In this document: positions 61,345 to 64,000 of the stretch, one piece after another | Numbering within the stretch: position 1 is the first letter of the stretch | Layout of the letters: each line of letters opens with the position of its first letter | Source of the DNA: a virus | Lineage: Duplodnaviria; Caudoviricetes | Strand: one strand, 5' to 3' | Virus record (IMG/VR): IMGVR_UViG_3300010167_001484 | Location: 150,047 to 214,046 of that record | Length of the DNA stretch: 64,000 nucleotides | Notes under the pieces: generated by a model | The model's database searches: none | What the model saw: only the letters and a program-made list of their open reading frames with translations | What the model was told of the DNA's origin: nothing | Program-made: the position numbers and the translations under genes

Positions 61345-61520
61345 TGGAGAAAGAACAAGCTGCAGATATTATTCAAGAATATATTAATACTAGTAAAATT
61401 GATGATATAGAAATTTTAGGAGCATTACAAATGTCTGTAGTAGCTCTAAGAATAATGGGATGTGGTTGTGATTTATGTTTATCTCACAATAATATGAGAT
61501 GCCCAAAATATTTTAAATGA
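61344..61520 (+). CDS. Small Cys-containing protein (not in the ORF track)
   Basis: Read by hand: MEKEQAADII...GCGCDLC...RCPKYFK; GAGGT RBS. Confidence 0.45.
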   Translation: MEKEQAADIIQEYINTSKIDDIEILGALQMSVVALRIMGCGCDLCLSHNNMRCPKYFK

Positions 61521-61537
61521 TTTCGTTATAATATAGT

Positions 61538-61897
61538 GAATAGAGTGTGAACCTGTACAGTAAACTAGCGTCAGGGTGGAGTGATTATTTGTCGAACATT
61601 CGGCCGTCAGCCTTGAAAGCAATGCCGGAGAACGCCGCTTCTTGCACCAGTAGACCGGGCTTGTACAATCCGGAATAATCTACGCAAGATATTCGAGATG
61701 CGAATTAGAATGGGAATAGCATTAGCTGGAGCCTTCTGTACAGTGAAGCCCAAGGGAGATAAATAGGAGTACTTGGAGAATAGACTTAGTGAGCTATTCC
61801 GTTGATTAACCATTTTGAGTTCATGGTTATACATCGAGAATCTATGATTGAGGACACAAGTGAAATTAAACCTCATAAAAACAACTTCTATCTATTC
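61538..61897 (+). ncRNA. Candidate ~360-nt structured non-coding RNA of unknown family
   Basis: GC-richer than its surroundings, no plausible + strand ORF, starts just after TTTCGTTATA (61521); terminal GAATAGA / TCTATTC pairing and at least six internal stems. Confidence 0.65.
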
Positions 61898-61927
61898 TTC
61901 CTTGTAAAAAATATTTTTAATTTGGTA

Positions 61928-61956
61928 TTGACTTTTAGTTAGTTTTATTATACAAT
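61928..61956 (+). promoter_or_regulatory. sigma70/sigmaA-type promoter of the Ro60 gene
   Basis: TTGACT-17 nt-TACAAT. Confidence 0.75.
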
Positions 61957-61989
61957 GTAATACTTGATTCATTTCTAGTAGGAGTGTAT

Positions 61990-63633
61990 ATGATGAGTAA
62001 GATATCTAAAGTAGTAGCGGATATGGTCGAAGTACAATCTTTGCAACCAGATAAAATTGTAGAAAATTTTATGTGTGGTGATTCATATGTAATGACTGCA
62101 TTGACAACATTGAAGATGGTTTCTGCAAGTTCAATATTTGGTGAACCTGCTTATTATAGAGATGGATTATTCGGAAGAGCTAAGGTAAAAGATGCTATGT
62201 ATGATGTACATCATCTAATTGGTGAATTTGATTTGTTATCAGAATTTGATAATAAAACTACTTCTGAAATAATGGAAAAAGTTATAGATAACGCTCTCGA
62301 TGAGGATTTTGGTGCAGTGTTATATTGGGCAATTAAACTTCGTCATGAATATAATATGCGTTTGAATCCTCAAGTAATAATGGTTCGTGCAGCCATGCAT
62401 CCAAGAAGGAAAGAATGGACAGATAATAATCCAGGTAAATTTAATGAGATTCAAATGCAAGTTATGTCACGTGCTGATGAGCCTGCTACACAACTTACAT
62501 ACTATCTATTTAAACATGAAGGAAAGAAGAATAATATTCCATCTATTCTTAAACGTTCAATAGCGAAACGTCTTTCTGAGTTCGGTTTTTATCAGATTGC
62601 TAAATATAAGAATCATGAAATAGGTATTATAAATGCAGTTCGTTTGACTCATGCAAATTCTAAAGTTATCGATGAGTTAATGCAGAAGGGTACAATTGAA
62701 CTCAACACTGAGCAAAAAACATGGGAGAATCTACGTTCTGAAGGTAAATCTTGGATAGAAATTTATAATACTATAAATATCGGTCATATGGCCTTACTTA
62801 GAAATATCCGAGGAGTATTTGAAGAAGTTGATGATATCGATTTTTGTAAAGTTTATATGGAGAAACTTAAATCAGGTGTATTAGATGGAAAACAATTTCC
62901 GTTTAGATATTTATCAGCTATGAAAGCAATAACTAATTCTAATGTCAACCATAAAATTATAATAATGGATGAATTAGAGATTTGTATGGATATCGCAGTA
63001 AATAATATGCCTAAGATCAAAGGTAAAACAATGTGTTTATCTGATAACTCAGGCTCAGCTTGGGGTACATTTAATTCTGAATACGGTACAATTACAATAG
63101 CTGAAATTGATAATCTTTCATCAGTGATAGTTGCAGCATGTTCAGATGAAGGATATGTTGGAAAATTTGGAAATCGTTTAATTATCACACCTATAACTAA
63201 ACGTAGCGGTATATTGAATCATACAAAGAGTATTAATGATAATGAATCTGAAGATGTTGGTGGCAATACTGAAGGAGGTATATGGGAATTCTTTCGAGAT
63301 GCTATAGCTGATAAAGAACATTGGGATAATATATGTATTTTCAGTGATATGCAGTGTGGACATGGTCAACTTTATGGTACAAGTTACCAGAAATCAGAAT
63401 ATGAAAAAGCTGGATTTGATGAAGTAGGTCATATAAATGTTTTTGCACTTGTTAGAGAATATCGCAAGAAAGTTAACCCTAAAGTTAATGTATTCTGTAT
63501 ACAAACTGCAGGTTATGATAATTCATCAATACCTGAATTAGCTTACAGAACTCATCTGATGTATGGGTGGACTGGACGAGAATTAGTATATATGGATTCT
63601 GTTATAAAACTTTGGGATGAATCAGAAAATTGA
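61990..63633 (+). CDS. Ro60 / TROVE-domain RNA-binding protein with a vWA domain
   Basis: FGEPAYY, MRLNP, YQIAKY, TWE, MALLRN, QFPFRY, MIDAS-like DNSGS, SDMQ and YGW motifs typical of Ro60/Rsr. Start is 61984, 61990 or 61993. Confidence 0.92.
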   Translation: MMSKISKVVADMVEVQSLQPDKIVENFMCGDSYVMTALTTLKMVSASSIFGEPAYYRDGLFGRAKVKDAMYDVHHLIGEFDLLSEFDNKTTSEIMEKVIDNALDEDFGAVLYWAIKLRHEYNMRLNPQVIMVRAAMHPRRKEWTDNNPGKFNEIQMQVMSRADEPATQLTYYLFKHEGKKNNIPSILKRSIAKRLSEFGFYQIAKYKNHEIGIINAVRLTHANSKVIDELMQKGTIELNTEQKTWENLRSEGKSWIEIYNTINIGHMALLRNIRGVFEEVDDIDFCKVYMEKLKSGVLDGKQFPFRYLSAMKAITNSNVNHKIIIMDELEICMDIAVNNMPKIKGKTMCLSDNSGSAWGTFNSEYGTITIAEIDNLSSVIVAACSDEGYVGKFGNRLIITPITKRSGILNHTKSINDNESEDVGGNTEGGIWEFFRDAIADKEHWDNICIFSDMQCGHGQLYGTSYQKSEYEKAGFDEVGHINVFALVREYRKKVNPKVNVFCIQTAGYDNSSIPELAYRTHLMYGWTGRELVYMDSVIKLWDESEN

Positions 63634-63729
63634 GTACTGATGCAGCTAGATCGGTTACTTCATATAATGAATAAGACTGCTAATCTTACACCCGGAAGGG
63701 TTTACCGATCTAATTATTCTCAGTACTCA
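63631..63729 (+). ncRNA. Y-RNA-like RNA with a tRNA-like cloverleaf head (Ser GCU anticodon-type loop)
   Basis: Perfect stems TGAGTACTGA/TCAGTACTCA and TAGATCGGT/ACCGATCTA enclose three hairpins; directly follows the Ro60 gene. Confidence 0.8.
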
Positions 63730-63751
63730 GAATTTAAGAAGGAGTTATTTT

Positions 63752-64000
63752 GTGAAGAGATTATTAGGTATTTTACTTATTTTAATCTTAGTTGGAGTAT
63801 TGTTAAGTTTAGTGTATTATGATATTTCAAGTCATGCATCAGTTGATAGTCATTCTATATTTGATGAAATAATCCATTATGTGATACACATAGTAATTTG
63901 TGTTATATTCTGTACGTTATTTCATAATTCAATGCATAAATTCTTAAATTGGGTTATAAAACTTGTAGGTTTCAAAATCCAAGATAGTCATAAAGATTAG
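63752..64000 (+). CDS. Small membrane protein
   Basis: GTG start after AGGAG; two hydrophobic segments. Confidence 0.55.
   Translation: MKRLLGILLILILVGVLLSLVYYDISSHASVDSHSIFDEIIHYVIHIVICVIFCTLFHNSMHKFLNWVIKLVGFKIQDSHKD

What the first reader, a model, noticed from the sequence alone, without database searches (positions are those of the whole stretch)
61521..61897. ~360-nt unannotated structured RNA with its own promoter motif and three palindromic UGUACA elements, upstream of Ro60
Seen: the longest non-coding gap in a densely packed window, clearly GC-richer than its flanks and starting right after TTTCGTTATA. Pairings: GAATAGA 61538-44 / TCTATTC 61891-97 (closes the molecule); GATTATT 61583-89 / AATAATC 61674-80; CCGG 61655-58 / 61670-73; ATTCG / CGAAT hairpin at ~61691-705; GGAATAGC 61713-20 / GCTATTCC 61793-800; CCAAG / CTTGG; TAACCAT 61807-13 / ATGGTTA 61823-29; TGAGG 61849-53 / CCTCA 61871-75. 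Self-complementary TGTACA occurs at 61554, 61662 and 61737, the last two at hairpin tips. I cannot recognise tmRNA, RNase P, SRP or group I/II intron hallmarks. Inference: a large phage ncRNA whose palindromic loops could form pseudoknots or intermolecular kissing contacts, as in multimerising RNAs such as phi29 pRNA or ROOL/GOLLD. It may be a second Ro60 ligand.
Basis: partly seen in the sequence, partly recalled or inferred. Interest (0 to 1): 0.82.

Follow-up and report, generated by a model that had tools for sequence, protein, structure and literature searches.

The report
Conserved phage leader RNA, not Ro60-linked
The flagged gap does hold a real folded non-coding RNA of an uncatalogued family, but it is about 190 bases long rather than 360, its three UGUACA palindromes are not conserved, and it was there before the Ro60-like gene was inserted next to it.

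Summary
The gap at 61521-61983 is real. It has stops in every frame, shows no codon periodicity, and is the only GC-rich intergenic gap in the window. It starts at an exact copy of the phage's own promoter motif, TTTCGTTATA (22 copies in the genome, all on the + strand).

No Rfam family matches it. About 200 loci and 29 genomes that carry the same Ro60-like (TROVE) gene have nothing like it. Homologs appeared only in the phage's true relatives, found through neighbouring genes: two metagenome contigs (L221, L231). Each has the same promoter, then this RNA, then a small membrane-protein gene, with no TROVE gene in the DNA available.

The conserved RNA is 61553-61743. Two blocks in it are 42/45 and 41/45 identical to L221, more conserved than any coding window nearby. 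There are 61 consensus pairs, 12 with compensatory changes. The closing helix differs completely in sequence in each phage.

None of the three TGTACA sites is conserved, and two of them are simply the two strands of the closing helix. The RNA lacks the handle shared by this TROVE family's Y-like RNAs.

Function is unknown. My best guess is a cis-acting 5' leader, and the next best is a stable small RNA.

The parts
61521..61538 (+). Phage-specific promoter motif TTTCGTTATAATATAG. It contains a -10-like TATAAT at 61527-61532. The transcription start is inferred near 61539.
   Evidence: 22 exact copies of TTTCGTTATA in the genome, all on the + strand. Twenty precede ORFs and one heads the tRNA cluster. 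The same motif directly precedes the RNA in L221 (13057) and L231 (2124). The start site is an inference.
61553..61743 (+). Conserved structured RNA core (called RNA-X here), closed by helix P1.
   Evidence: nhmmer gives E 9.7e-22 to L221 and 8e-54 to L231. Covariance model R2 scores 187.9 bits (training sequence). 61 consensus pairs, 92% of cells paired, 12 pairs with changes on both sides against 4.4 +/- 1.7 in shuffles and 1-3 in slid controls.
61553..61560 (+). P1 5' strand CUGUACAG. It pairs with 61736-61743 (CUGUACAG).
   Evidence: Pairing probability 0.76-0.99. L221 and L231 have a closing helix of unrelated sequence at the same place: 18 bp in the fold of L221 and 12 bp in L231.
61570..61617 (+). 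P2 (61570-61580 with 61607-61617), enclosing hairpin P2a (61591-61595 with 61600-61604).
   Evidence: Three pairs in P2 and one in P2a changed on both sides.
61599..61643 (+). Conserved block A. It includes the small hairpin P3 (61624-61628 with 61635-61638).
   Evidence: 42 of 45 bases identical to L221. This is the best 45-nt window in 3.5 kb of synteny, where coding windows reach at most 39 and average 23.
61640..61689 (+). P4 (61640-61646 with 61683-61689) and its distal part. The distal part is lineage-specific and in this phage ends in the loop CUUGUACAA.
   Evidence: Two pairs in P4 changed on both sides. The distal part is 22 nt shorter here than in L221 and L231, and its loop sequence is not conserved.
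61688..61733 (+). Conserved block B, with hairpin P5 (61691-61695 with 61701-61705) and P6 (61712-61714 with 61732-61734; 61717-61720 with 61725-61728).
   Evidence: 41 of 45 bases identical to L221. P5 and P6 are almost invariant, so they offer no covariation test.
61744..61983 (+). AT-rich spacer, not conserved in relatives, with local hairpins (61807-61829, 61849-61875) and a sigma-70-like promoter TTGACT-17-TACAAT at 61928-61956. I read it as the left part of the inserted TROVE cassette.
   Evidence: Absent from L221 and L231, where the next gene's ribosome-binding site follows P1 within about 10-15 nt. Promoter match.
61984..63633 (+). TROVE/Ro60-like gene. It is a neighbour, not a partner, of RNA-X.
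   Evidence: PHROG 850, E 5.9e-39. Pfam TROVE E 1e-4, below its cutoff. 2842 homologs.
63632..63730 (+). Y-like RNA carrying the family handle (GATGCAG ... GTTACTTC ... ATTCTCAG). This is the likely TROVE partner.
   Evidence: Model R1 scores 56.8 bits (training sequence). The handle motif GTTACTTC occurs 361 times on the + strand of 197 TROVE loci, against 17 expected and 7 on the - strand.
63752..64000 (+). Small membrane-protein gene. In L221 and L231 it lies directly after RNA-X.
   Evidence: tblastn gives 40% identity to L221 13387-13620. The ribosome-binding site and start region resemble those of L231.

Best explanation
Window 61553-61743 encodes an independently folding RNA domain of about 190 nt. 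It has a multi-helix junction closed by P1 and belongs to an uncatalogued family with three known members, all in one small lineage of roughly 215-kb gut-type phages. (Only two of the three contigs reach that size; L231 is a 3.8-kb fragment.)

The RNA is transcribed from the phage's own promoter at 61521 and forms the 5' end of that transcript. In the relatives the next gene is a small membrane protein. In this phage a 2-kb cassette (sigma-70-like promoter, TROVE gene, Y-like RNA) has been inserted between the two, so the closeness to Ro60 is secondary.

Shown: conservation, synteny, the shared promoter, compensatory pairs, and the lack of the Y-RNA handle.

Inferred: the RNA acts in cis as a 5' leader. 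Its two nearly invariant blocks would bind a specific factor (a protein, RNA polymerase or a small ligand) and so affect transcription, stability or expression of whatever lies downstream.

I put about 0.9 on 'real conserved structured RNA, not a Ro60 partner' and about 0.45 on the cis-leader mechanism.
For: Non-coding and compositionally distinct:
- ORF-free, no codon periodicity, GC-rich.
- The antisense 89-aa ORF has no true homolog among 1.84 billion proteins.

Promoter:
- The motif is real and sits at the same position in all three loci.
- The only other copy of the motif in the genome followed by a long ORF-free stretch heads the tRNA cluster.

Homologs and synteny:
- Found in the true relatives (SbcC-like gene 51% identical, 123-aa gene 69-70%). 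Gene order is 123-aa gene, small ORF, promoter, RNA, membrane-protein gene.
- Blocks A and B are the most conserved 45-nt windows in 3.5 kb of synteny.

Structure:
- 61 pairs, 12 compensatory; 0 of 500 shuffles reach that, and slid controls give 1-3.
- The relatives' copies fold far better than shuffles: z -4.24 and -3.20.

Leader position:
- In the relatives P1 starts within a few nt of the inferred transcription start, and the next gene's ribosome-binding site follows P1 by 10-15 nt with no terminator.
Against: - There are only three sequences, so covariation statistics are thin, and the most conserved helices (P3, P5, P6) do not vary.
- This phage's own copy folds no better than shuffles (z -0.59).
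- In the folds of L221 and L231 the downstream ribosome-binding site is not sequestered by the RNA, and no terminator/antiterminator alternative was seen. There is thus no visible expression platform, which fits a free-standing RNA as well as a leader.
- The rest of the 218.8-kb L221 contig could not be searched for a TROVE gene.
Confidence: 0.5

Rival explanations
1. A stand-alone, stable, trans-acting small RNA. The P1-closed domain would be released from the primary transcript, for instance by cleavage at or next to P1. It would then act on a host or phage factor through its invariant blocks, like other stable RNAs of phage RNA islands.
For: - P1 brings the 5' and 3' ends together and is 12-18 bp long in the relatives, long enough to be a double-strand-specific nuclease site.
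- The domain folds independently of downstream sequence and leaves the next ribosome-binding site free.
- It lies at the head of the phage's RNA island (TROVE gene, Y-like RNA, tRNAs), and the same promoter type drives the tRNA cluster.
Against: - No terminator follows it in any of the three loci.
- In this phage P1 is only 8 bp.
- There are no expression or processing data.
Confidence: 0.35
2. One reading: a second RNA ligand of the phage Ro60-like protein.
For: - It lies directly upstream of the TROVE gene in this phage.
- Bacteria often have two or more Y RNAs near the Ro60 gene rsr (PMC4201824).
- Ro60 can also bind misfolded structured RNAs, and that was not tested here.
Against: - The two homologous loci have no TROVE gene and no adjacent Y-handle motif in the DNA available.
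- 0 of 21 TROVE-bearing phage genomes hold it by covariance model R2. nhmmer found nothing in about 200 TROVE loci.
- It lacks the handle that marks this family's partner RNAs: R1 scores at most 3.7 bits.
- The TROVE cassette brings its own promoter and its own Y-like RNA.
Confidence: 0.06
3. A multimerising RNA whose palindromic UGUACA loops form kissing contacts, as in phi29 pRNA, ROOL or GOLLD.
For: - Three TGTACA sites in 190 nt is unusual for this sequence.
- One of them (UUGUACAA) sits in a hairpin loop with stem probability about 0.99.
Against: - None of the three sites is conserved in L221 or L231.
- Two of them form the intramolecular helix P1.
- In the consensus-structure alignment the corresponding loop is UAAUGU in L221 and CACUGU in L231, neither palindromic.
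- No Rfam match to ROOL, GOLLD or pRNA at E up to 10, although the ROOL model readily finds ROOL in a related locus (284 bits).
Confidence: 0.03
4. Not an RNA gene at all: a decayed coding sequence, foreign DNA scrap, replication origin or operator region.
For: - This copy has no thermodynamic signal.
- The 12-nt direct repeat CTGTACAGTAAA / CTGTACAGTGAA and a flanking pair of AAAATATTTT could be protein sites.
Against: - The conservation pattern is blocks plus compensatory helices, and a closing helix replaced entirely in sequence.
- No iterons and no change in GC skew.
- No reading frame or codon periodicity.
- No host match for a 23-mer in 185,579 species genomes.
Confidence: 0.04

Closest known systems
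Cis-acting 5' leader RNAs (riboswitch aptamers; processive-antitermination leaders such as HK022 putL/putR)
   Same: It lies directly after a promoter and just before the next gene. It has a multi-helix junction closed by a P1 whose sequence is free to vary, while internal blocks are nearly invariant. Its size is in the range of large aptamers.
   Different: No Rfam family matches. No expression platform (terminator/antiterminator or ribosome-binding-site sequestration) was found. It is known only from three phage contigs and no bacteria. No ligand or effect is known. The comparison with put RNAs and riboswitch architecture rests on my own knowledge, not on a test.
Bacterial and phage Y RNAs (YrlA/YrlB; Rfam RF02553; PMC4201824)
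   Same: A structured RNA next to a Ro60/TROVE gene, with 5' and 3' ends paired.
   Different: It lacks this TROVE family's handle (GAWGCRG ... GTTACTTC ... ATTCTCAG) and any tRNA-like T or D arm. It is roughly twice the size. It is conserved at loci without a TROVE gene and absent from TROVE-bearing genomes.
ROOL and GOLLD RNAs (large ornate phage and prophage RNAs; PMC5737381, PMC12286853)
   Same: A phage-borne structured RNA of unknown function located in or near tRNA/RNA islands. A TROVE-carrying phage, L010, has ROOL about 1.5 kb from its TROVE gene.
   Different: About 190-235 nt against about 580 and 800 nt. No match to either model. There is no evidence of self-assembly.
tmRNA
   Same: Phages with a related TROVE gene carry tmRNA right beside it (L009, L014).
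   Different: No tRNA-like domain, tag reading frame or pseudoknots were detected. ARAGORN and Rfam are both negative.

Membership tests
Y RNA / YrlA-like partner RNAs of this TROVE family | 5' and 3' handle: stem, GAWGCRG, stem, GTTACTTC ... stem, ATTCTCAG, stem | tested here: not met
   Model R1, built from 50 modules, gives at most 3.7 bits (- strand) and 0 bits (+ strand) in 61535-61900 with filters off. The window's Y-like RNA scores 56.8 bits, though it was a training sequence. There is no GTTACTTC in the region.
Y RNA / YrlA-like partner RNAs of this TROVE family | Encoded next to a Ro60/TROVE gene across genomes | tested here: not met
   Both other members lie at loci with no TROVE gene in the DNA available. 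0 of 21 TROVE-bearing phage genomes and about 200 TROVE loci hold the RNA.
Y RNA (general, PMC4201824) | GNCGAAN0-1G motif near the 5' end; tRNA-like T and D stem-loops in YrlA | tested here: not met
   GTCGAA occurs at 61591, but no G follows within the allowed spacing, and the equivalent in L221 and L231 reads GCCGGA. No match to any Rfam family, YrlA and tRNA included, and no tRNA by ARAGORN.
Y RNA (general) | Bound by Ro60 | not testable with these tools
   Needs co-immunoprecipitation or a gel-shift assay.
ROOL (RF03087), GOLLD, phi29 pRNA | Match to the family covariance model | tested here: not met
   No hit at E up to 10 in 61400-62050 or in L221 13030-13330. As a positive control, ROOL was found at 284 bits in L010.
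ROOL / GOLLD / pRNA-like multimers | Conserved self-complementary loops that mediate intermolecular contacts | tested here: not met
   None of the TGTACA sites is conserved. The equivalent loop is not palindromic in L221 or L231.
tmRNA | tRNA-like domain plus a tag reading frame | tested here: not met
   ARAGORN found none in the window or the genome. No Rfam tmRNA hit. As a positive control, tmRNAs were found in L009 and L014.
Riboswitch / cis-regulatory leader | Conserved aptamer-like core between the promoter and the regulated gene | tested here: met
   Promoter, then a P1-closed conserved core, then a ribosome-binding site within 10-15 nt in L221 and L231.
Riboswitch / cis-regulatory leader | Expression platform (alternative terminator, or sequestration of the ribosome-binding site) | tested here: inconclusive
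   No terminator-like site. The ribosome-binding site is unpaired with the RNA in the minimum-energy folds of L221 and L231. Minimum-energy folds alone cannot exclude a switch.
Riboswitch / cis-regulatory leader | Ligand or factor binding that changes expression | not testable with these tools
   Needs in-line probing and reporter assays.

The most novel reading that the evidence does not exclude
RNA-X is the founding member of a new class of phage cis-regulatory RNA. It would be a large aptamer-like leader that senses a metabolite or captures a host factor, such as RNA polymerase or a ribonuclease, at the 5' end of a phage middle or late transcript. In this phage it would now also gate expression of an acquired Ro60/Y-RNA cassette.
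Probability: 0.25. Interest if true: 0.65.

Novelty: new variant of a known kind. Interest (0 to 1): 0.45.

Why it matters
- It adds an uncatalogued, comparatively supported structured RNA to the poorly charted RNA islands of large gut phages.
- It shows that the apparent pairing of Ro60 with two flanking ncRNAs is an accident of cassette insertion, which stops a wrong functional link from spreading.
- It gives a sharp signature for the real partner RNAs of this large TROVE family (2842 homologs).
- The family is small (three members) and its function is unknown, so its present value is as a lead for RNA-motif discovery and for studying how phage RNA-repair cassettes move.

Tried and rejected
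Searches for a known family:
- Rfam at gathering thresholds on the window and on 140 kb more of the genome (150.2 kb of the 214 kb lie outside the window), and at E up to 10 on the region and on L221. Only chance hits appeared: snR48, mir-450 and Sphinx_2.
- ARAGORN found no tRNA or tmRNA.

Searches for homologs that found nothing:
- BLASTN against 50,697 phage records.
- nhmmer and BLASTN against 37 + 80 + 80 TROVE loci and 29 whole TROVE-bearing phage genomes. They gave only short chance hits inside coding genes, including L150 at E 0.2 inside a hydrolase gene.
- Pattern scans of IMG/VR for the triple palindrome, three core 18-19-mers and a two-block pattern. They gave nothing or chance hits (L131, L224, L225).
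- A 23-mer scan of 185,579 species genomes found nothing.
- Model R2 on 156 Clostridia genomes found nothing.
- More distant phage relatives (SbcC-like gene 40-50% identical: L222, L223, L226-L230) lack the RNA.

Other ideas tested:
- Antisense 89-aa ORF. No Pfam or PHROG match. Its two database hits are repeat-inflated matches, the one traced (P0123) to a satellite array on an 87.5-Mb chromosome.
- Base pairing between RNA-X and the Y-like RNA, the tRNAs, the tRNA leader or the TROVE 5' UTR was no better than shuffles.
- A T5-type '210-aa gene plus RNA' link. The nearby phosphoribosyltransferase is Hpt-like, and none of its nine phage matches is T5 or T5-like.

Steps that could not be run:
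- The closest relative by the SbcC-like gene (P0126, 55%) has no DNA on hand.
- The whole L221 record is not held for genome search.

Full report
**What is at the coordinates**

The window is the last 64 kb of a 214-kb phage record with 33% GC. Between the stop of a 58-aa ORF (61520) and the TROVE gene (61984) there are 463 nt with stops in all six frames. The first 280 nt are the only GC-rich intergenic gap in the window. GC is equal at all three codon positions, unlike the neighbouring genes.

The one long ORF in the gap is 89 aa on the antisense strand. It has no Pfam or PHROG match. Its only hits among 1.84 billion proteins are repeat-inflated matches, the one traced (P0123) to a satellite array on an 87.5-Mb chromosome. 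The stretch is therefore non-coding.

**The promoter motif**

TTTCGTTATA occurs 22 times in the genome, always on the + strand (extended form TTTCGTTATAnnAtATAg). Almost every copy lies 28-90 nt before a start codon. The two copies followed by long, GC-richer, ORF-free sequence are this one and the one heading the phage's tRNA cluster. The motif contains a -10-like TATAAT, which puts the start near 61539. That start position is an inference.

All the listed complementary segments exist. However, the 380-nt stretch folds no better than dinucleotide shuffles (z +0.47), and no 120-nt window stands out. Moving the ends by a few bases removes four of the proposed helices (probability 0). Only the local hairpins and a long-range CUGUACAG/CUGUACAG helix are stable. 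There is no Rfam hit, even at E up to 10.

**Searching through the Ro60-like gene led nowhere for the RNA, but was informative**

The TROVE protein has thousands of relatives. I fetched 37 viral, 80 metagenomic and 80 genomic loci. In them the gene sits among tRNAs, tmRNA (L009, L014) and ROOL (L010). None of the loci, and none of 29 whole genomes, has anything like the target.

Those loci did reveal the family's real partner RNAs. These are modules of about 75-140 nt with the handle stem-GAWGCRG-stem-GTTACTTC ... stem-ATTCTCAG-stem, often carrying tRNA-like T and D arms, and arranged in arrays of three to six. GTTACTTC occurs 361 times on the TROVE strand against 17 expected and 7 on the other strand. 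A covariance model of the handle (R1) finds the window's own copy at 63632-63730 (56.8 bits; it was in the training set). It gives at most 3.7 bits anywhere in 61535-61900.

**Searching through the phage's own backbone found the homologs**

The SbcC-like gene upstream has few close relatives.
- One is a 218.8-kb JGI contig (L221, 51% identical). Its gene order is SbcC-like gene, 58-aa, 75-aa, 125-aa and 83-aa genes, then TTTCGTTATA and a 240-nt homolog of the target (nhmmer E 9.7e-22). That is followed directly by the homolog of the membrane-protein gene that in my window lies after the TROVE gene and the Y-like RNA.
- The 123-aa gene led to a third copy (L231, E 8e-54) in the same arrangement.
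- Neither locus has a TROVE gene or an adjacent handle motif in the DNA available.

The sequence just before the membrane-protein gene's start is still similar between the window and L231. So in this phage about 2 kb (61744 to about 63735: AT-rich spacer with a sigma-70-like promoter, TROVE gene, Y-like RNA) was inserted between the RNA and its ancestral downstream gene.

**Evidence that it is a selected, folded RNA**

- Across 3.5 kb of synteny with L221 (52% identity overall), the best-conserved 45-nt windows are two blocks inside the RNA: 42/45 at 61601 and 41/45 at 61688-61690. No coding window exceeds 39/45, and the mean is 23.
- The three-sequence consensus has 61 pairs in ten helices, with 92% of cells paired.
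- Twelve pairs changed on both sides, against 4.4 +/- 1.7 in shuffles (0 of 500 reach 12) and 1-3 when partners are slid.
- P1 has a different sequence in each phage: 8 bp CUGUACAG/CUGUACAG here, 18 bp in L221 and 12 bp in L231.
- The relatives' copies fold with z -4.24 and -3.20. This phage's copy gives z -0.59.
- Three sequences are few, and P3, P5 and P6 are invariant and so uninformative.

None of the three TGTACA sites is conserved. Two are the strands of P1. The third sits in a distal loop that reads UAAUGU and CACUGU in the relatives' consensus-structure alignment. Model R2 finds the RNA in 0 of 21 TROVE-bearing phage genomes and 0 of 156 sampled Clostridia genomes. The Ro60-ligand and kissing-loop ideas are therefore unsupported, although binding itself was not testable.

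**Mechanism**

Shown: the RNA starts at or near the transcript's 5' end, folds on its own, and in the relatives is followed within 10-15 nt by the next gene's ribosome-binding site with no terminator.

Inferred: it is a cis-acting leader whose invariant blocks bind a specific factor (about 0.45). A stable RNA released at P1 is nearly as likely (about 0.35), because no expression platform is visible. One weak hint for a cis link is that the relatives have a CUCC-containing linker in distal P4 that could pair with the downstream GGAG, and this 22-nt segment is missing in the phage where the downstream gene was displaced. That is speculation.

**Novelty**

No catalogued family matches. Earlier notes of this scan describe other uncatalogued RNAs in phage tRNA islands. 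I could not test whether any of them is the same family, and a word-based look-up found no look-alike.

Noticed in passing
window 63632-63730, and L002-L216 next to their TROVE genes: This TROVE family's partner RNAs share a sharp handle (GAWGCRG-N6-10-GTTACTTC ... ATTCTCAG). They form arrays of 3-6 modules, and many carry T-arm and D-arm inserts in the T-then-D order. 145 of 197 loci have at least one. This phage has a single copy.
   Followed up: partly
window about 61744-63735: The TROVE gene, its sigma-70-like promoter (61928-61956) and the Y-like RNA behave as one inserted cassette, because two related phages have the flanking sequences adjacent. None of the window's neighbouring genes recurs within 2.5 kb of the TROVE gene in about 200 other loci.
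   Followed up: partly
G000 556-1124 (L039), outside the window: A second copy of the promoter motif is followed by 560 nt of ORF-free sequence at 41% GC, directly before the seven tRNA genes (1125-1920). It has no Rfam hit at E up to 10 and no similarity to RNA-X. It may be another unannotated RNA or a tRNA-operon leader.
   Followed up: partly
window 61505-61514 and 61908-61917: The palindromic 10-mer AAAATATTTT occurs only twice in the 64-kb window (0.72 expected), one copy on each side of the flagged region. The right copy lies in the inserted spacer. This is unexplained.
   Followed up: partly
G000 556, 7204 and 61737 (genome coordinates): Three copies of the promoter motif are followed about 20-40 nt later by a shared motif, GTATGTGGATTGAAA (with variants). 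It may be a common 5' UTR element.
   Followed up: no
G000 125378 (genome coordinate): A promoter motif followed at once by a GC-rich start (GGGGAAGGAAAACCCTGGCCAGGGCGG...), about 100 nt before the next ORF. Rfam at gathering thresholds found nothing there.
   Followed up: no
L220 110-1657 and 1763-3439: Two TROVE-family genes lie in tandem on one metagenome contig. The first has clear TROVE and vWA_Ro60 Pfam hits and the second belongs to the divergent family studied here.
   Followed up: no
L009 1880-2284; L014 5634-6034; L010 381-1024: Phages with a related TROVE gene carry tmRNA or ROOL RNA within 1.5 kb of it. The TROVE gene is thus part of a mixed RNA island.
   Followed up: no
G000 1-489 (L039) and L221 16871-17359: A 162-aa RNaseH_like protein (PF04308, E 1e-43) lies among the tRNA genes in L221 and just upstream of the tRNA cluster in G000. 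The two are 60% identical.
   Followed up: no
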